Shown: piece by piece, positions 13,126 through 18,841 of the stretch
Layout: every line of letters begins with the position of its first letter
Numbering within the stretch: the first letter of the stretch is position 1
Made by a program: the position numbers and the translations under genes
Origin: a virus
Length of the DNA: 18,841 nucleotides
UHGV virus genome: UHGV-1439128
Reading direction: 5' to 3' (one strand)
The notes under the pieces: model-generated
What the model saw: only the letters and a program-made list of their open reading frames with translations
Told to the model about the DNA's origin: nothing
Database searches by the model: none

Positions 13126-14430
13126 CTAAGCCGCTTTTTTCAGCGGTGACTGTTCGAAGGGAATATCGGGGAATACGTGGTTATGGACCTGCCGCAGAGC
13201 GAATGCCTGTGCGGCCTGGCTGTTCTGCTTCAGATCATCGAGCGGCGTCAGGTTGAGCTGCACCGTGTAAATATCGCCGCCCTCAATCGGTGGCATGTTC
13301 TCCAGGCGGCGCACGTCGTTACGGGACATCCAGCCGTTCTGCAGCGCACTGGTGTAGTAAGCAGCCCGTCCAGCGCTGTCGGCGCGCAGCAGGCCCTCAA
13401 CTGAGAACTCAGCAAAGAGGTCCTCTTCGCCATTCAGCAGGCAACGGGAGATCTCCTGCTCAATGTTCACCAGCAGCGGGCGCAGCGTATGGGTCAGGAA
13501 CTGGAGGTTCATTCCCTCGAGGCTCGACGCCCAGCTGCTTTGCTTTGATGTATGCCCGACCATAAACGGCGGCACGCGGAACCAGCGGCAAATTTCCTCA
13601 ATACTGAATGAGCGACTTTCCAGCATCTGGGCATCTTCAGGGTTCATGGTGACACCCTGATATTTCAGGCCGCCCTCAAGCACCATGATTTTTCCGGCGT
13701 TTTTGGAACCGGTAAACTTCGCCATATAACCGCGAAGTCTTTCCCGCTGATCTTCGTCCAGCGCATTGTCCGATGAGAGAAACCCGGAGCTTTGCAGGCC
13801 CTGTTCAAAAATCTTTGCAGCAGATTCTTCAACCGCCATCGCGGAGCCGATTACATCCCGACCCGTCCTCATCGGCATCATGCCGCAGACACCATCGAGG
13901 CCGAACCCACGGATGTGCATCAGGTTCTTTTCGGGAATAACGCGTTTCTTGCCATCCTCGGTGTACGTGTATTCCAGCCGCCCGGTATCAAGCCGCTTCA
14001 CCACCATGTTCTGGGGCAGCAGTGGCACCAGCGACACCAGCTTATTGCCGATAAACAGCTTCTCGACAAAGGCATTTCCGCGCAGGCAGATGCTGGCCAC
14101 CACCATCAACATAAAGCGCGACGGCGTCATTTCCAGATTGGGACGGCGACAAAGCACCTGGTATACCGGATGGTTCTGCGCCAGCTTGCGCGAGCCATCA
14201 GCCTGTCGGGTGTAAATCTTAACCGGCAGCGTGGACACCGACTCGCTCAGAAGCCGGACGCAGGCCCAGACGGCCGAAAGTTGGATCGCCTTATCTGCCG
14301 TGACCACCTTGCCGCTGCTGCTCGTGCCATACCACTCCTGCCAGAACGTTCCGGTAGTCAGGCTGATGGGCACGCCCAGCCAGTTGAGCAAGGCGCTTTT
14401 TACCTTGCCCGGCTGCTTACTTTTCTTCAT
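13126..14430 (-). CDS. Portal protein (HK97-family-like), 434 aa
   Basis: Start ATG overlaps the terminase large subunit stop (TGATG); size and position between terminase and protease match a portal protein. Confidence 0.8.
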   Translation of the reverse strand: MKKSKQPGKVKSALLNWLGVPISLTTGTFWQEWYGTSSSGKVVTADKAIQLSAVWACVRLLSESVSTLPVKIYTRQADGSRKLAQNHPVYQVLCRRPNLEMTPSRFMLMVVASICLRGNAFVEKLFIGNKLVSLVPLLPQNMVVKRLDTGRLEYTYTEDGKKRVIPEKNLMHIRGFGLDGVCGMMPMRTGRDVIGSAMAVEESAAKIFEQGLQSSGFLSSDNALDEDQRERLRGYMAKFTGSKNAGKIMVLEGGLKYQGVTMNPEDAQMLESRSFSIEEICRWFRVPPFMVGHTSKQSSWASSLEGMNLQFLTHTLRPLLVNIEQEISRCLLNGEEDLFAEFSVEGLLRADSAGRAAYYTSALQNGWMSRNDVRRLENMPPIEGGDIYTVQLNLTPLDDLKQNSQAAQAFALRQVHNHVFPDIPFEQSPLKKAA

Positions 14431-16187
14431 CAGAAACCTACCATGATGGGGTTGTCAAAGAATCCACTCAGGTCCTGCTGGTCGTTGCCACCGTTAACAA
14501 GCAGACGGCTCATTGCGGTAAACAGCGCCGCCGGGCCGTCAATCTTGGCTTCCGGGGTCGATTTGTTGGGGAAGATATTGTCATTACGATCCGGCCGAAC
14601 CGTCACATTCGACATCATCCAGTTCATCACCGGGTGATTGCTGTGATGGAGCCGTCCACCGTAAACCAGCGCCTCGACTTCCTTCATGGCTTCGGAGAAG
14701 TTGCGGACCGTCTGTGGAACCTCCACCAGAGGCAGGCCTTCCTCGGCAAGCGCCAGGCTGAACTGCGTGGCACTCCACGGGTCAAAACCGATTTCTTTCA
14801 GGCTTTCACCGGCCACCCACGCCTGAAGTTCTTCCTTGATCTGCGCGTGGTCTATCACATCCCCGTCGGTCAGGATGAGCTTGTCCAGTTCCGCCCATTT
14901 GCGGTAGAGCTCGGCCATCTGCCGGGAACACTTCTCAAGCCGCCCTTCCGGCAGCCAGAATTTAAAGTCGGTGTGAACGTGCCCGTCGGGAGAACGCCAG
15001 GCTTTTACCGCGGCGCAGATATCGATTTTGTTCGCCAGATCGACCCCCACCCAGAGCGGATAGGTTTTCAGTTCATGCGCCGGCGCGATGAGTTCGCATT
15101 TTTCCCACTTCAGCATGTCCATCCAGGAAGACTCCGCCGTAACCCAGATATTCATGTGTTTGGTGAAAAAGTTAACGCGGGCGGACACCTGCTCTTTGGC
15201 CTTCTTCGCCAGGCGACGCAGATCGTCCCAGCGCTTGCAGATGCCGAGGCCCGGATTCGCCTTCTGCCAGACCGTTTCATCAAAAGGGTCGTCGCCTTCG
15301 TCCAGGGTGTAGATGATGGCAAAGAAGGTATCGTCCTTAACCGCTCCTTCCACATCGCTGTTGAAACCGCGCAGTACCTTGATGGCATAATCGCGCAGCT
15401 CATAGCAGATGCCTTCTTTATTAAAGCCGGCGGTGGTAATGCCGAACAGCAGCGACTGCAGGCGCGCACCGGTTGCTGTCTCCAGCACGTCCCAGACGTC
15501 ACGGGTTTTATGAGCGTGCAGCTCGTCGACAATGCCGCAGTGGATGTTCAGGCCGTCCAGGTTGTTCGCGTCGCTGGAAAGGGGCTCGAACTTCGACGCG
15601 CTCTGCTCCTGGTAGATCGCCAGCTTGTTGAACTCAAACAGGCGGCCCAGTGTCGCTTTCGCTTTCTTCACCATGTTCTTGGCATCTTCAAACACGATAC
15701 GCGCCTGGTCTCGTGTTGTGGCCGCCGAATAAACCTCAGCGCCGCCCTCGCCATCTGCACCAGCCATATACAGGCCGACACCAGATGAAAGTGTGGATTT
15801 GGCGTTCTTACGCGCCACCTCGTTGTAAGCGGTGCGGAACCGCCGCACCATCACCGGGCGGCCGCTGCCATCGTTGCGCAGCACCACGTCGCCAGTCTCC
15901 TCGTTCACCAGCGGGATCACAAACCCATAGATATTGATGAGAATGAAAATATGCCAGTCCATCAGGTCGATGGGCTGACCGGCCTGCGCCCCCTTAACGT
16001 GGGGTATAAATTTGTAAAAATTCAGGATGTGCTGCGCCCGGGGTTCGCTGAAGAAGATCCCACGCGCCTCGCCGTTTTTCAGATCGTCCAGAAAACGCTG
16101 GCATGCCAGCCGGACATACTCACAGGCAATAATCTCCCCCGCCACGACGCGCTCGGCGTAGCGGATACCTTCTGCAACCTTGGCCAT
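14430..16187 (-). CDS. Terminase large subunit, 585 aa
   Basis: 585-aa ORF whose start overlaps the small subunit stop (TAATG); contains a Walker B-like 'GIVDELH'; canonical position upstream of portal. Confidence 0.85.
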   Translation of the reverse strand: MAKVAEGIRYAERVVAGEIIACEYVRLACQRFLDDLKNGEARGIFFSEPRAQHILNFYKFIPHVKGAQAGQPIDLMDWHIFILINIYGFVIPLVNEETGDVVLRNDGSGRPVMVRRFRTAYNEVARKNAKSTLSSGVGLYMAGADGEGGAEVYSAATTRDQARIVFEDAKNMVKKAKATLGRLFEFNKLAIYQEQSASKFEPLSSDANNLDGLNIHCGIVDELHAHKTRDVWDVLETATGARLQSLLFGITTAGFNKEGICYELRDYAIKVLRGFNSDVEGAVKDDTFFAIIYTLDEGDDPFDETVWQKANPGLGICKRWDDLRRLAKKAKEQVSARVNFFTKHMNIWVTAESSWMDMLKWEKCELIAPAHELKTYPLWVGVDLANKIDICAAVKAWRSPDGHVHTDFKFWLPEGRLEKCSRQMAELYRKWAELDKLILTDGDVIDHAQIKEELQAWVAGESLKEIGFDPWSATQFSLALAEEGLPLVEVPQTVRNFSEAMKEVEALVYGGRLHHSNHPVMNWMMSNVTVRPDRNDNIFPNKSTPEAKIDGPAALFTAMSRLLVNGGNDQQDLSGFFDNPIMVGF

Positions 16188-16684
16188 TAATCCCTCGCTT
16201 TCATGAACTCAGCCAGCGGATCAACCGCATCCGGCGTTTTGGTGCTGACCTTTGACCGGCTGGAAGGAGTCATACCAAACTCCGCTAACATCGCGCGAAG
16301 TCGCTTCCAGGCATCAGCTTTCATCATGGCTGCCGGATGCGGCTTGATCATGCGTATTTCACGCTCTTTCCCTTCATCAGCATCATCATCGCTGTATACC
16401 GCATAGGTATAACCTTCCCGATCCAGCGTTTCACAATGATGGCGGTATTCCGTATATGCCTCTACCAGCAACTCCAGAGCCCTGGCATCCAGCTGAGATA
16501 TGACGCCAATGGCATCAAGTTCTTCGGCCATCCGCTTAAACCAGTACTTCCCCTGCTTGTCGAAATGCTTGGGAACTGGGGGGACCCCTTTAGGTGGCTG
16601 CGGCTCGTTTTTGTTGATTGGTCGTTTGGATGGGTTACCCCTCACCAAACGCAGATGGGTAGGGGTTTTCGGCGGTCCTGACAT
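16187..16684 (-). CDS. Terminase small subunit (P27-family-like), 165 aa
   Basis: Small basic N-terminus (KRPINKNEPQPPKGVPP) suggesting DNA binding; immediately upstream of and coupled to the large terminase; AGGAG 10 nt upstream of the ATG. Confidence 0.7.
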   Translation of the reverse strand: MSGPPKTPTHLRLVRGNPSKRPINKNEPQPPKGVPPVPKHFDKQGKYWFKRMAEELDAIGVISQLDARALELLVEAYTEYRHHCETLDREGYTYAVYSDDDADEGKEREIRMIKPHPAAMMKADAWKRLRAMLAEFGMTPSSRSKVSTKTPDAVDPLAEFMKARD

Positions 16685-16840
16685 AATCGAAAACTCCTAT
16701 TAATCATCGGCTGGGGGACCCCAAAAAAAGTTTTCTAACCTGCGGCGATGTGAAGAAAGGCTAGGCGGCGGTCCTTTTGGCGCCCGGTTACAGGGATTTG
16801 ACCTCCCCCTCCCCTCCACATCCGTTGATGGTAATCATTA
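16685..16840. other. Candidate packaging-initiation (cos) region between HNH endonuclease and terminase small subunit
   Basis: 156-bp non-coding gap, the only long one inside the packaging module; contains a polypyrimidine tract (16801..16818, plus strand ACCTCCCCCTCCCCTCCA), a GGGGG-A-CCCC symmetric element followed by A7 (16714..16732) and a GGCGGCGG core (16764..16775). HK97-like phages place cos between the HNH and terS genes. Confidence 0.35.
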
Positions 16841-17191
16841 TCATTTGAAGCGTTCACGCCCTGTTTTCGAGCGGTGGCAAGGCCAGCACAGGCTTTCAAG
16901 GTTCGAATCATCATCGGTACCCCCATGAGCCTTAGCCTTGATATGGTCAACGGTTGTGGCCGCGACAGCGCGTCCAGTACGCAGGCAGTTCTGACACAGA
17001 TGATTATCACGCTTCAGGATGCGCGCGCGCTTGATATCCCACTTGCCGCCGTAACCACGCTCATGGCGGCTCTTACCCTGCTGGTGCTGTTGCCAGCCCT
17101 CATTTCGATGCTGCTCACAGTAGCCTGAACGGTCCGTAGTCGTACCGGGACAACCTCTCTTGCGACATGCGCGAGGGATTAACGCTGGCAT
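16841..17191 (-). CDS. HNH endonuclease (terminase-associated), 116 aa
   Basis: Cys/His-rich with an HNH signature: CxxC...DHIKAKAHGG...N...LCWPCH; sits immediately upstream of the cos-like region and terS. Confidence 0.8.
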   Translation of the reverse strand: MPALIPRACRKRGCPGTTTDRSGYCEQHRNEGWQQHQQGKSRHERGYGGKWDIKRARILKRDNHLCQNCLRTGRAVAATTVDHIKAKAHGGTDDDSNLESLCWPCHRSKTGRERFK

Positions 17192-17412
17192 GGTTCAATC
17201 CTCACGGAACCGTAGAGCGTATGCCGCTTCACTTCATCGTTCTCTGCCGTCATATAACCACGCTCATCAGGAACGGCTGCGATTACTTCGCCCTTCTCAT
17301 CGTCAGCAGTGAAGACATGCTTAACTTCAACACCATTGAGATAAACGCTATACCGCTCTTTGCTGAGGTTTATTTTTCTTCCAGGATCATCATCTAAAAC
17401 GGTTAGTCTCAT
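17179..17412 (-). CDS. Hypothetical small protein (accessory / moron-like), 77 aa
   Basis: ATG at 17412 with AGGGGA 6 nt upstream; visibly more AT-rich than the flanking structural genes; 3' end overlaps the HNH start by 13 nt; no family recognised. Confidence 0.5.
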   Translation of the reverse strand: MRLTVLDDDPGRKINLSKERYSVYLNGVEVKHVFTADDEKGEVIAAVPDERGYMTAENDEVKRHTLYGSVRIEPCQR

Positions 17413-17508
17413 TCTTATCCCCTACTTGGTATATTGATTATCTTATTCGCTTGAAGGGATAACCATTATCAAGCCCACCCGTAGATGGGCTTTGTAATGC
17501 CTACATGG

Positions 17509-17988
17509 TTAAATGATTTGCCAGTCTTCAGCCATCAGGTCGCCAATGGATGGAACCCATGTAGCAAGGCGGTTCTGTGAGTTTTTCAATACAAGCGTGT
17601 CATTGAAAGTTGGCTCGCCAACATATTCGCCAAAGCCATAACCCAACGCAGACGCTAATTTTTCCCCTTTCACGAGATAAACAAACTGGTCTTTCCCATT
17701 CCATCCTGCCCGCTGCAAACTTTTGCCCTGTTTTAACGCTTCCATGGCAAGGCCGAAACTTAGTCCTGATACCGGACGATAAGCCTTTTCGAATACTTCT
17801 TTTGGACTCCAGCTAACGTAGCCATCAAAGCGATCGGTGTTAGGTTTTCCGCCATCCAGATATTCAACCAGATAGCCTTCGTCCTCGCCGTTTTCTCCGG
17901 CAGGAAGCTGCCAGCCACGAAAATCGTTATATGCCTGTCTCGTCATCGGAAAGGCGTTAATCAGTTTTACGCCAATATGCTGGGTCAT
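17509..17988 (-). CDS. Two-domain accessory protein; C-terminal half DUF2829-like (possible Tad2-like anti-defence sponge), 159 aa
   Basis: C-terminal half contains 'AMEALKQGKSLQRAGWNGKDQFVYLV' and ends '...GDLMAEDWQII', matching my recollection of DUF2829 signatures (ALKxGKKVxRxGWNGKG ... DLLAEDWEI); lower GC than neighbours; lies in the accessory slot between the lysis cassette and packaging genes. Confidence 0.55.
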   Translation of the reverse strand: MTQHIGVKLINAFPMTRQAYNDFRGWQLPAGENGEDEGYLVEYLDGGKPNTDRFDGYVSWSPKEVFEKAYRPVSGLSFGLAMEALKQGKSLQRAGWNGKDQFVYLVKGEKLASALGYGFGEYVGEPTFNDTLVLKNSQNRLATWVPSIGDLMAEDWQII

Positions 17989-18069: not shown

Positions 18070-18213
18070 TCAACGCAGCCCCTTACCGCGCGCCAGATGC
18101 TCAACTTCAAGCATCAGCAATGAGATGTTTAATCTGGATTCACTCCAGAAGTGATCACCACCCTGTCTACAGAGCCAGATGTGAAGGATGATGAGTAAAA
18201 TTATCGCTATCAT
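18070..18213 (-). CDS. Possible small hydrophobic ORF translationally coupled to Rz, 47 aa (speculative)
   Basis: ATG at 18213..18211 overlaps the Rz stop in an ATGA arrangement; product [47 protein letters not shown] has a hydrophobic N-terminus; ends about 35 nt before the terminator. Below the ORF-track size cut-off, with rare codons and no clear RBS. Confidence 0.25.
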
Positions 18214-18677
18214 CGAAGGCATTGCGTCCTGATGTATTCCTGAAGCGTTCTCAGTGCTGTTTGGTCGCGGATAATTCCGTCCCGGATACCGAGAACGTTT
18301 CGTCCAGCAACTGGAGAGAGTTCGACGGTGGCATCATTGCCCATGCCGGAGGCGCTGGAGGTTTCGGCTGAGGATGGCACAGGGCATTTTCCTTTGACGA
18401 GCACCCGACCACCATTATCAAGCTTGCGCCGAAGAGCATCATTTTCAGCTTTCGCATCAGCTAACTCCTTCGTGTATTTATCATCGAGTGCATCAGCATC
18501 ACGCTGGCGCTGCTGCATGTCAGTAATGGTGGCGTTCGCCTTCTCCAGTTCACTGGCCTTGTTATCGCGCTGTTCTTTGTAGGCGATTGCATTATCACGG
18601 TAATGATTAACAGCCCATGACAGGCAGACGATGATGCAGATAACCAGAGCGGAGATAATCGCGGTTACTCTGTTCAT
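18210..18677 (-). CDS. Rz: Spanin inner-membrane subunit (i-spanin), 155 aa from the ATG start
   Basis: N-terminus [31 protein letters not shown]... is nearly identical to my recollection of lambda Rz ([32 protein letters not shown]...); N-terminal TM segment plus coiled-coil region; ATG at 18677 overlaps the endolysin TGA (ATGA). The GTG at 18689 used by the ORF track is probably not the true start. Confidence 0.85.
18251..18457 (-). CDS. Rz1: Spanin outer-membrane lipoprotein subunit (o-spanin), embedded in the +1 frame of Rz, 68 aa
   Basis: Entirely within Rz in another frame; AAGGAG 7 nt upstream; lipoprotein signal with lipobox LIMVVGC followed by a Pro-rich segment ([16 protein letters not shown]), closely resembling lambda Rz1. 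Confidence 0.8.
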
Positions 18678-18841
18678 TGCTGACCCCACAAACAGATTTC
18701 ACGCTCAATCTCACGACGAGTCATGAGACCTTTCCATTGCTTACCGCCAGCATATGTCCAGCGACGTAGCTGATCACATGCGCCTTTGATATCGCCCTGG
18801 TTTATTTTGCGAAGAAGCGTCGATGTTCTGAAATTGCCAGC
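18674..18841 (-). CDS. Endolysin, GH24 phage-lysozyme type, 3' portion only (5' end outside window)
   Basis: Frame open from the window edge to TGA at 18676..18674; C-terminus ...[50 protein letters not shown] resembles T4/P22-type lysozyme C-termini; directly upstream of Rz/Rz1. Confidence 0.65.

What the first reader, a model, noticed from the sequence alone, without database searches (positions are those of the whole stretch)
16685..17191. HNH endonuclease, cos-like intergenic region and terminase small subunit: probable genome ends and HNH-assisted cos cleavage
The only substantial non-coding gap in the packaging module (16685..16840) lies between an HNH endonuclease gene and terS. In HK97-like phages an HNH protein next to cos is needed for terminase cos cleavage, so the mature genome ends probably map inside this gap. 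It contains unusual elements: a 16-18-nt polypyrimidine/polypurine tract (ACCTCCCCCTCCCCTCCA, 16801..16818), a GGGG-A-CCCC symmetric element followed by A7 (16714..16732), and a GGCGGCGG core (16764..16775) that loosely resembles the lambda cohesive-end sequence GGGCGGCGACCT. The resemblance is partial and I do not claim the exact cut site.
Basis: partly seen in the sequence, partly recalled or inferred. Interest (0 to 1): 0.5.

Follow-up and report, generated by a model that had tools for sequence, protein, structure and literature searches.

The report
HK97-type phage cos site
The gap between the HNH nuclease gene and the small terminase gene is very probably the cos site of an HK97-like prophage, where the packaging enzymes cut the DNA to make sticky genome ends; this is a well-known kind of site, now placed to the base by comparison with relatives.

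Summary
All genes are on the minus strand in the order HNH, a 156-nt gap, terS, terL, portal, protease, HK97-fold capsid.

The 60 nt to the left of the predicted cut match the mapped HK97 cos at 36/60 positions without gaps (p<1e-5). This is the best match anywhere in the window. Shared features are a G-rich tract, TCAAATC, a spacer of fixed length and GACCGCCGCC.

Transferring the HK97/HK75 10-nt 3' overhang (CGCCGCCAAA) predicts the cohesive end CGCCGCCTAG on the gene strand, at 16761..16770.

Two relatives with the same terS family support both nick positions. The PhageTerm-determined ends of Pantoea phage AH07 omit exactly these 10 nt. The record of Proteus phage Pm34 breaks at GGAC|CGCC.

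The likeness to the lambda cohesive end is superficial.

The T7 run and the GGGG-T-CCCCC dyad lie at +32..+48, where HK97 has its TerS-binding A-tract. That side does not match HK97, and neither does TerS. Among 100 unique relatives the non-coding block from the cut to the terS ATG is as conserved as terS second codon positions.

Verdict: new member of a known kind; low-to-moderate interest.

The parts
16841..17191 (-). HNH endonuclease gene (116 aa). It has an N-terminal zinc ribbon (C9-x4-C14, C25-x2-H28) and an HNH core (C66xxC69, D82-H83, N97, C102xxC105-H106).
   Evidence: Pfam PF01844, E 2e-15. Aligned over 1-114 of 116 aa with PDB 5h0m, the GVE2 phage HNH endonuclease, E 2e-14 (PMC5304195). 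43% identity over 44 aa with HK97 gp74, E 1e-9.
16802..16817 (-). G-rich tract of the cos left arm (gene strand GGAGGGGAGGGGGAGG), at -57..-42 from the top-strand nick.
   Evidence: It aligns without gaps with the HK97 G10 tract. A G-rich 12-mer ends 29-32 nt before the bottom-strand nick in 97 of 100 relatives. It is at the same place in HK97, mEp235, Pm34, a Klebsiella prophage, AH07, and Pseudomonas and Glaciecola prophages.
16795..16801 (-). TCAAATC, directly after the G tract (-41..-35).
   Evidence: Identical heptamer at the identical offset in HK97.
16775..16794 (-). Spacer that varies in sequence but not in length, between TCAAATC and cosN.
   Evidence: Mean pairwise identity 0.47 for 16776..16796, yet the alignment has almost no gaps here. 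The distance from TCAAA to [G/T]AC is 28 nt in eight lineages.
16761..16774 (-). cosN core GGAC|CGCCGCCTAG| on the gene strand. The nicks are predicted between 16770|16771 (+ strand) and 16761|16760 (gene strand).
   Evidence: HK97 and HK75 records end ...GAC CGCCGCCAAA, and HK75 annotates those last 10 nt as 'cos site'. HK97 numbering is confirmed by TerS contacts at T16 and G:C21 (PMC11331095). Pairwise identity among relatives is 0.89 for 16761..16775.
16761..16770 (-). Predicted 10-nt 3' cohesive end (gene strand CGCCGCCTAG; + strand CTAGGCGGCG).
   Evidence: AH07's ends were determined with PAUSE and PhageTerm (PMC8567787). Its record stops at ...GAC and restarts at CCTTT..., omitting exactly these 10 nt when compared with a related Klebsiella prophage. 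The linear Pm34 record breaks at GGAC|CGCCCCCTTA.
16730..16760 (-). Conserved right-arm block CCTTTCTTCACATCGCCGCAGGTTAGAAAAC (+1..+31).
   Evidence: Pairwise identity 0.88 among 100 unique relatives. CCTTT..CA..CCGC..GAAAA recurs in a distant P27-family terS lineage. Similarity to the HK97 right arm is not significant, 21/60, p=0.06.
16723..16729 (-). T7 tract (A7 on the + strand) at +32..+38; candidate A-tract part of the TerS recognition site.
   Evidence: A T run lies at +31/32..+36/38 in all P27-family lineages examined, against +24..+30 in HK97. In HK97 the A-tract belongs to the minimal TerS site at +15..+29 (PMC11331095).
16713..16722 (-). Dyad 1, GGGG-T-CCCCC (+39..+48).
   Evidence: The G3-4 and C4-5 arms are kept in nearly all relatives, while the 1-3 nt centre varies (T, TA, AA, AT, TT, TTA, TG).
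16685..16712 (-). terS leader with the ribosome-binding site (AGCCGATGATTAATAGGAGTTTTCGATT; GGAG at 16694..16697).
   Evidence: Pairwise identity 0.91 for 16685..16729. No promoter or terminator above chance, and no Rfam family.
16187..16684 (-). terS, small terminase of the P27 family.
16631..16675 (-). terS codons 4-18, with unusually conserved synonymous sites; possibly cos or leader function extending into the ORF.
   Evidence: Third-position pairwise identity is 0.86-0.92 in 4-codon windows here, against 0.56 for the whole gene.
16576..16589 (-). Dyad 2, AGGGGTCCCCCCAG, inside terS codons 33-36 (+172..+185). It is a near copy of dyad 1, about 134 bp downstream.
   Evidence: located it. 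The synonymous sites of GGG, CCC and CCA have pairwise identity 1.0, 1.0 and 0.96 in 100 relatives, although the flanking codons vary.
14430..16187 (-). terL, large terminase (ATPase plus nuclease).
   Evidence: PF03354 and PF20441. 27% identity with HK97 gp2, E 2e-37. 92% identity with phage mEp235 TerL.

Best explanation
The gap 16685..16840 is the cos site of an HK97-like (Hendrixvirinae-type) temperate phage. The window is a single 18,841-nt metagenome contig, and its proteins are typical of the Citrobacter freundii complex and other Enterobacteriaceae.

In concatemeric or prophage DNA the HNH gene (right genome end) and terS (left genome end) flank cos. Read on the gene (minus) strand, the site has these parts:
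- a G-rich tract at -57..-42, followed by TCAAATC;
- a spacer of fixed length;
- the nicking core GGAC|CGCCGCCTAG|;
- a conserved right arm containing GGTTAGAAAAC, T7 and GGGG-T-CCCCC;
- the terS ribosome-binding site.

Inferred mechanism, by homology with HK97: TerS binds the A-tract-containing right arm about 20-50 bp downstream of the cut. There it marks the DNA for initiation and acts as a roadblock for the incoming motor at termination. TerL, helped by the adjacent HNH protein, then nicks the two strands 10 bp apart. This leaves 10-nt 3' overhangs (CGCCGCCTAG / CTAGGCGGCG, window 16761..16770).

Shown here: the anatomy, the conservation, the homology of the left arm to the mapped HK97 cos, and coincidence of the cut positions with the termini of related phages. 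Inferred: the physical ends of this phage, which protein cuts which strand, and the exact TerS site.
For: 1. Gene set and order. HNH, gap, P27-family terS, terL (PF03354/PF20441), portal (PF04860), ClpP-like protease and HK97-fold capsid (PF05065) follow one another. This is the arrangement in which HNH proteins take part in cos cleavage (Kala et al. 2014, as summarised in PMC12967558; PMC9410871).

2. Homology to HK97 cos. The 60 nt left of the predicted cut match HK97 at 36/60 without gaps. Shuffles give a mean of 15.9 and sd 3.4, so p<1e-5. This is the best-scoring position on either strand of the window. The G tract, TCAAATC at -41 and GACCGCCGCC are at identical offsets.

3. Mapped HK97 ends. 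HK97 and HK75 records end in CGCCGCCAAA, which HK75 annotates as its cos site. The HK97 10-nt 3' overhang and the -1/+1 numbering come from PMC11331095 and PMC9410871.

4. Ends of phages with the same terS family. AH07's ends were determined with PAUSE and PhageTerm (PMC8567787). They fall at ...GAC and CCTTT..., missing exactly the 10-nt overhang, which fits end repair removing 3' tails. The linear Pm34 record breaks at GGAC|CGCCCCCTTA.

5. Purifying selection on the non-coding DNA. Pairwise identity among 100 unique relatives is 0.89 for cosN and 0.90 from the cut to the ATG. For terS codon positions 1, 2 and 3 it is 0.85, 0.90 and 0.56.

6. Other roles for the gap. No promoter or terminator above chance, no Rfam family, and no significant RNA fold.

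7. TerL relatives. The window's TerL is 92% identical to that of the Hendrixvirinae coliphage mEp235, whose own cos region is nearly the same as the window's.

8. HNH protein. It keeps all catalytic and zinc-binding residues. It aligns over nearly its full length with the GVE2 phage HNH endonuclease.
Against: - No physical end data exist for this phage. The window is a metagenome contig, and its own ends are not at cos.
- No contig in the IMG/VR or metagenome scans started at the predicted cut. That test is weak, because most hits are integrated prophages.
- The T tract lies 8 bp further from the cut than in HK97.
- The source of the Pm34 record ends could not be traced to a methods description.
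- Each motif alone is not improbable by chance.
Confidence: 0.82

Rival explanations
1. Cos lies in this gap, but the cut geometry differs from HK97: a different overhang length, or nicks shifted by a few bases, for example at the second CGCCGC motif (ATCGCCGCAGG, +12..+22).
For: TerL is only 27% identical to HK97 gp2 and the HNH protein has a different architecture. A second CGCCGC motif is conserved 13-19 nt downstream. One HK97 paper quotes 10 nt in a legend and 12 nt in its discussion.
Against: The termini of AH07 and Pm34, which carry the same terS family and the same cos layout, fall exactly at the HK97-homologous positions, 10 nt apart. HK75 annotates a 10-nt cos.
Confidence: 0.1
2. The gap is mainly an expression signal for terS (late-transcript leader and ribosome-binding site). 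The HNH gene is a free-standing homing endonuclease unrelated to packaging. The phage packages by headful, or the prophage is defective.
For: Some deposited records label homologous HNH genes 'homing endonuclease'. The SD region is the best-conserved part of the gap, and synonymous-site conservation runs on into terS. Both could reflect translational control.
Against: The left arm is homologous to a mapped cos. The termini of related phages fall in it. The TerL family is that of HK97-type cos phages. HNH-cos-terS order is conserved from Enterobacterales to Pseudomonas and Glaciecola. No promoter or terminator was found. All packaging and head ORFs are intact.
Confidence: 0.05
3. The two GGGG-T-CCCCC(C) dyads and the conserved start of terS act at the RNA level, as long-range pairing that controls terS translation, and are not part of cos.
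For: The minimum-free-energy fold of the 201-nt leader plus 5' terS RNA pairs dyad 1 with dyad 2 and encloses the ribosome-binding site. The synonymous sites of dyad 2 are invariant or nearly so.
Against: The folding energy is not unusual: z = -0.75, and 41 of 200 shuffles fold at least as well. The arms never vary, so there is no covariation to test. This reading is compatible with the cos assignment for the rest of the gap.
Confidence: 0.15

Closest known systems
cos site of coliphages HK97, HK022 and HK75 (Hendrixvirinae), with HNH protein gp74, TerS gp1 and TerL gp2
   Same: The HNH gene is at the right end and terS at the left end, flanking cos. The G tract, TCAAATC at -41, the spacer length and GACCGCCGCC are at identical offsets (36/60 identity). 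The overhang occupies the same position (CGCCGCC + 3 nt). A T/A tract lies downstream of the cut. Portal, protease and HK97-fold capsid genes follow.
   Different: TerS has no detectable sequence similarity to gp1: it is PF05119 here, while gp1 has no Pfam family. The right arm is not significantly similar, and the T tract is 8 bp further from the cut. TerL is only 27% identical. The HNH protein carries an N-terminal zinc ribbon that gp74 lacks (PMC3592412). The gap is 156 nt, against about 368 nt in HK97.
cos regions of phages with the same P27-family terS: mEp235, Fraca, Proteus phage Pm34, Pantoea phage AH07, Klebsiella prophages
   Same: mEp235 has TerL 92% and TerS 79% identical to the window's. 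Its sequence from GGACCGCCGCCTAG to the terS ATG is almost the same as the window's. Pm34 and AH07 share the layout, and their record ends fall at the predicted nicks.
   Different: mEp235 and HK97 have an extra AT-rich stretch between the HNH gene and the G tract, which is nearly absent here. In AH07 and the Klebsiella lineage there is no GGGG-N-CCCC dyad and terS starts at +50. The overhang's last three bases differ between lineages.
lambda cos (cosQ-cosN-cosB, gpNu1/gpA, 12-nt 5' overhang GGGCGGCGACCT)
   Same: The logic is the same: a nicking site flanked on the terS side by a small-terminase binding region and on the other side by an element at a fixed distance. The 7-nt GGCGGCG string is shared (lambda sequence from PMC12315714).
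   Different: Lambda makes 5' overhangs of 12 nt, not 3' overhangs of 10 nt. GGCGGCG is on the opposite strand relative to terS. The TerL family differs (PF03354/PF20441 here). Lambda has no HNH protein (PMC9410871).
GVE2 (Geobacillus virus E2) HNH endonuclease, PDB 5h0m
   Same: The alignment covers residues 1-114 of the 116, including the N-terminal zinc ribbon and the HNH core, E 2e-14. The GVE2 gene likewise lies next to that phage's terminase genes (PMC3592412, table seen).
   Different: The host is Gram-positive and thermophilic. The cos sequence of GVE2 was not compared here.

Membership tests
HK97-type cos packaging module with HNH accessory nuclease (Kala et al. 2014 class) | HNH endonuclease gene directly upstream of terS, with an intact HNH motif | tested here: met
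   HNH at 16841..17191, 156 nt upstream of terS. PF01844, E 2e-15. H83, N97, H106 and both CxxC pairs are present.
HK97-type cos packaging module with HNH accessory nuclease (Kala et al. 2014 class) | TerL of the HK97 gp2 type, followed by portal, prohead protease and HK97-fold major capsid protein | tested here: met
   PF03354 + PF20441, PF04860, PF00574, PF05065. 27% identity to gp2, E 2e-37.
HK97-type cos packaging module with HNH accessory nuclease (Kala et al. 2014 class) | cos nicking sequence homologous to the mapped HK97 site | tested here: met
   36/60 ungapped identity left of the cut, p<1e-5, the best site in the window. GACCGCCGCC is shared.
HK97-type cos packaging module with HNH accessory nuclease (Kala et al. 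2014 class) | Virion DNA with 10-nt 3' cohesive ends at that site | not testable with these tools
   Supported only through relatives: HK75 annotation, AH07 PhageTerm/PAUSE ends, Pm34 record ends.
HK97-type cos packaging module with HNH accessory nuclease (Kala et al. 2014 class) | cos cleavage stimulated by, or dependent on, the HNH protein | not testable with these tools
   Shown for HK97 gp74 in vitro (PMC9410871). Inferred here.
HK97 gp1-type small terminase (ring with DNA through the channel, A-tract site downstream of the cut) | Sequence homology to gp1 | tested here: not met
   BLASTP finds no significant alignment. gp1 has no Pfam family, while the window's TerS is PF05119.
HK97 gp1-type small terminase (ring with DNA through the channel, A-tract site downstream of the cut) | Same fold | tested here: inconclusive
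HK97 gp1-type small terminase (ring with DNA through the channel, A-tract site downstream of the cut) | Conserved A/T tract 15-40 bp downstream of the cut | tested here: met
   T7 at +32..+38 here, and at +31/32..+36/38 in all P27-family lineages examined, against +24..+30 in HK97 (PMC11331095). TerS binding itself was not tested.
lambda-type cos (gpNu1/gpA, 12-nt 5' overhang) | cosN GGGCGGCGACCT in the terS orientation, and a lambda gpA-type TerL | tested here: not met
   Only the 7-nt GGCGGCG is shared, and it lies on the opposite strand. TerL matches PF03354/PF20441, the HK97 gp2 type.
Zinc-ribbon HNH nicking endonucleases next to cos (Xu & Gupta group 1; GVE2 HNHE) | N-terminal zinc ribbon plus C-terminal HNH domain with CxxC...CxxC | tested here: met
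   Alignment to 5h0m over residues 1-114, E 2e-14. C9/C14/C25/H28 and C66/C69/C102/C105 are present (group definitions in PMC3592412).

The most novel reading that the evidence does not exclude
cos in this phage group may be modular.

The left arm consists of a G-rich 12-mer, a spacer of fixed length and [G/T]AC|CGCCGCC. It is shared by phages whose TerS proteins are unrelated in sequence and whose TerL proteins are only 27% identical. It is found from Enterobacterales to Pseudomonas and Glaciecola. It may therefore be the recognition or termination element of the HNH-TerL nuclease, a counterpart of lambda cosQ plus cosN.

The right arm is exchanged together with terS. In this P27-family lineage it may extend about 185 bp into the terS ORF, as a two-site element: two GGGG-T-CCCCC dyads about 134 bp apart, with codons 4-18 constrained at synonymous sites.

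Neither the G tract nor a second site has been studied experimentally, as far as the papers read here show.
Probability: 0.35. Interest if true: 0.45.

Novelty: new member of a known kind. Interest (0 to 1): 0.27.

Why it matters
It fixes the probable genome ends of a widespread family of Enterobacteriaceae prophages to the base. That helps with prophage annotation, with choosing the start of genome records, and with recognising cos-carrying satellites or transducible DNA.

The comparison also gives testable targets for the well-studied HK97 packaging system:
- a G tract at a fixed distance upstream of the cut, conserved across terminase lineages;
- a right arm specific to each TerS family.

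As a discovery it is modest.

Tried and rejected
1. Contig-end test. I scanned IMG/VR with CGCAGGTTAGAAAMYTTTTT and metagenome contigs with TCACAYCGCCGCAGGTTAGAAA, to see whether assemblies break at the predicted cut. None of the loci listed (80 of 120 per scan) starts or ends there. This is uninformative, because most hits are integrated prophages.

2. Promoters, terminators and RNA families in 16300..17600. Two promoter-like sites on the non-gene strand is the chance level. There were no terminators, and the only Rfam hit was a spurious one at E 0.31.

3. RNA structure of the leader plus 5' terS. z = -0.75, not significant.

4. Lambda homology of the GGCGGCGG core. Rejected: wrong strand, wrong overhang polarity, wrong terminase family.

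5. Literature search for the overhang strings. Only primers and unrelated hits came back. The Kala 2014 paper is not held, and no methods paper for Pm34 was found.

6. Sequence search of TerS against the PDB. Only chance myoglobin hits.

7. Second copy of GGACCGCCG in terS codons 3-5 (16670..16678). Relatives vary at the synonymous sites there (CCG/CCA), so it is a coding coincidence and not a second cosN.

8. Record ends of mEp235 (old record), Fraca, PSTRCR_117lys and VIPKPNMC05. These were set at gene starts or by assembly, and say nothing about the termini.

Full report
**What is in the window.** All relevant genes are on the minus strand:
- Rz lysis protein, 18210..18689;
- a Tad2-like/DUF2829 protein, 17509..17988;
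- a 77-aa ORF, 17179..17412;
- an HNH endonuclease, 16841..17191 (PF01844, E 2e-15);
- a 156-nt gap, 16685..16840;
- terS, 16187..16684 (PF05119, P27 family);
- terL, 14430..16187 (PF03354 + PF20441);
- portal, ClpP-type protease and an HK97-fold capsid protein.

The window is one whole ENA metagenome contig of 18,841 nt. Its HNH, TerS and TerL proteins are typical of the Citrobacter freundii complex and other Enterobacteriaceae. The best complete E. coli genome is 96% identical over this stretch.

**Checking the observation.**
- the pyrimidine tract, 16802..16817;
- GGGGG-A-CCCC, 16713..16722;
- A7, 16723..16729;
- GGCGGCGGTC, from 16764.

Taken singly they are not rare in shuffles of the window (8%, 28% and 8% for the three classes tested). 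The case therefore rests on arrangement, homology and conservation.

**Homology to a mapped cos site.** The HK97 record ends ...GGGCAGGGGGGGGGGATCAAATCTTCAAAACCTTTGCCCCAAATGACCGCCGCCAAA. It starts GTTTGAATTTAACGCTAACCCGATTTTTTTAG..., with terS at +50.

On the gene strand the window reads GGAGGGGAGGGGGAGGTCAAATCCCTGTAACCGGGCGCCAAAAGGACCGCCGCCTAG CCTTTCTTCACATCGCCGCAGGTTAGAAAACTTTTTTTGGGGTCCCCCAG....

- Without gaps, the 60 nt left of the cut match at 36/60. Shuffles give a mean of 15.9 and sd 3.4, so p<1e-5.
- That is the best-scoring place on either strand of the whole window.
- The 60 nt right of the cut match at 21/60, p=0.06, which is not significant.

HK97 makes 10-nt 3' overhangs. Its cleavage site lies between the last and first bases of the record. 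The published TerS contacts at T16 and the G:C pair at 21 fit the record's numbering (PMC11331095; PMC9410871). HK75 annotates its last 10 nt, CGCCGCCAAA, as the cos site.

Transferring this to the window gives the cohesive end CGCCGCCTAG at 16761..16770. The nicks fall at 16760|16761 on the gene strand and 16770|16771 on the + strand.

**Independent support from phages with the same terS family.**
- *Proteus phage Pm34* (TerS 68% identical, linear record). Its record breaks at GGAC|CGCCCCCTTA, the homologue of the bottom-strand nick.
- *Pantoea phage AH07* (TerS 38% identical). Its ends were determined with PAUSE and PhageTerm on TruSeq libraries (PMC8567787). Its record stops at ...CCTCCTGAC and restarts at CCTTTTTATGCACAACCGCG.
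- *A related Klebsiella prophage* reads ...AAATGAC CGCCGCCAGT CCTTTTTGTGCACAACCGCG.

So the AH07 record lacks exactly the 10-nt overhang. That is what end repair of 3' tails would produce; this last step is my inference. Both nick positions are thus seen in a relative.

**Conservation.** I collected 33 genomic and 80 IMG/VR loci encoding relatives of this TerS. Among 100 unique sequences, mean pairwise identity was as follows:

| Region | Pairwise identity |
|---|---|
| cosN (16761..16775) | 0.89 |
| cut to terS ATG (16685..16760) | 0.90 |
| terS codon positions 1 / 2 / 3 | 0.85 / 0.90 / 0.56 |
| HNH codon positions 1 / 2 / 3 | 0.58 / 0.63 / 0.39 |
| G tract (16802..16817) | 0.65 |
| spacer (16776..16796) | 0.47 |

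The spacer almost never changes length. An anchored comparison of eight lineages puts the G tract and the [G/T]AC|N10| cut in the same register. The lineages are the window, HK97, mEp235, Pm34, the Klebsiella prophage, AH07, and Pseudomonas and Glaciecola prophages. The T run lies at +31/32..+36/38 in every P27-family lineage and at +24..+30 in HK97. The overhang varies mainly in its last three bases: CGCCGCCTAA in 41 sequences, CGCCGCCTAG in 29, and rarer forms.

**The proteins.**
- *TerL* is 27% identical to HK97 gp2 (E 2e-37) and 92% identical to mEp235 TerL.
- *HNH* matches gp74 only in the core (43% over 44 aa). It aligns over residues 1-114 of 116 with the GVE2 phage HNH endonuclease, 5h0m, including an N-terminal zinc ribbon (PMC5304195; groups defined in PMC3592412).

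**Mechanism.** By analogy with HK97, TerS should bind the right arm, probably within GGTTAGAAAAC-T7-GGGGTCCCCC (+21..+48). In HK97 the minimal TerS site is +15..+29 and needs the A-tract. Bound TerS stalls the motor at the downstream cos. TerL cuts, and the HNH protein stimulates cleavage. Whether HNH makes one of the two nicks is still open even for HK97.

The left arm is conserved across terS families and is not bound by TerS in HK97. It is a plausible recognition or termination element for TerL/HNH; this is inference. The cut site shows no clear two-fold symmetry, which fits two different nucleases or two sequential events.

**Other roles for the gap.** I found no promoter or terminator above chance, no Rfam family and no significant RNA fold. 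The last approximately 28 nt of the gap carry the terS ribosome-binding site.

**An extra observation.** DNA-level constraint continues into terS.
- Codons 4-18 have third-position identity of 0.86-0.92.
- Codons 33-36 (GGG GTC CCC CCA, 16577..16588) form a second GGGGTCCCCCC dyad, whose synonymous sites are invariant or nearly so (1.0, 1.0 and 0.96).
- The gene-wide third-position mean is 0.56.
- Dyad 1 keeps its G and C arms while its centre varies.

This may be a second protein-binding site or an RNA element. It is unresolved.

**Verdict.** It is a new member of a known kind: an HK97-type 3' cos with an HNH helper, here combined with a P27-family TerS.

Noticed in passing
window 16576..16589 (terS codons 33-36) and 16631..16675 (codons 4-18): A second GGGGTCCCCCC dyad lies inside terS, about 134 bp from the one in the gap. 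The synonymous sites of its GGG, CCC and CCA codons are invariant or nearly so (1.0, 1.0, 0.96) across 100 relatives. Codons 4-18 also have third positions far more conserved than the gene average (0.86-0.92 against 0.56).
   Followed up: partly
window 16670..16678: GGACCGCCG, the cosN core, recurs in terS codons 3-5 (S-G-P-P-K). Relatives vary at the synonymous sites there (CCG/CCA), so it looks like a coding coincidence.
   Followed up: yes
window 17509..17988 (-): A 159-aa protein with a Tad2-like (Thoeris anti-defence 2 / DUF2829) domain, PF11195, E 6e-22. It lies between the lysis genes and the HNH gene and could be an anti-defence gene.
   Followed up: no
window 17179..17412 (-): A 77-aa ORF overlapping the start of the HNH gene by 13 nt, with no Pfam family. 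A homologous ORF is annotated as a hypothetical protein in the related E. coli prophage.
   Followed up: no
L039 (Pseudomonas sp. MN1F) and L040 (Glaciecola MAG), about 50-150 nt upstream of terS: The same cos layout is present outside Enterobacterales: a G-rich 12-mer, a 28-nt spacer, [G/T]AC + 10 nt, then a T run at about +32. There the TerS is only 38-42% identical to the window's.
   Followed up: partly
L006/L007 (Providencia phage PSTRCR_117lys, MW358929, junction of the circular record): Compared with Pm34, this record lacks 39 nt spanning cosN, from ...CTCTCGCC directly to GGTTAGAAAAC. This is probably an assembly or circularisation artefact at the cohesive ends.
   Followed up: no
L245 (HK633, NC_019719) record ends: The record ends at ...AAATGAC and starts ACTGTTTGAA, so the 10-nt overhang CGCCGCCAAA is not represented. 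This is another deposited genome in which the 3' cohesive end appears to have been lost or garbled.
   Followed up: no
PMC9410871 (HK97 packaging paper): The figure legend gives 10-nt 3' overhangs for HK97, while the discussion says 12-nt 3' overhangs (and gives 10-nt 5' overhangs for lambda). The HK75 annotation and PMC11331095 support 10 nt for HK97.
   Followed up: yes
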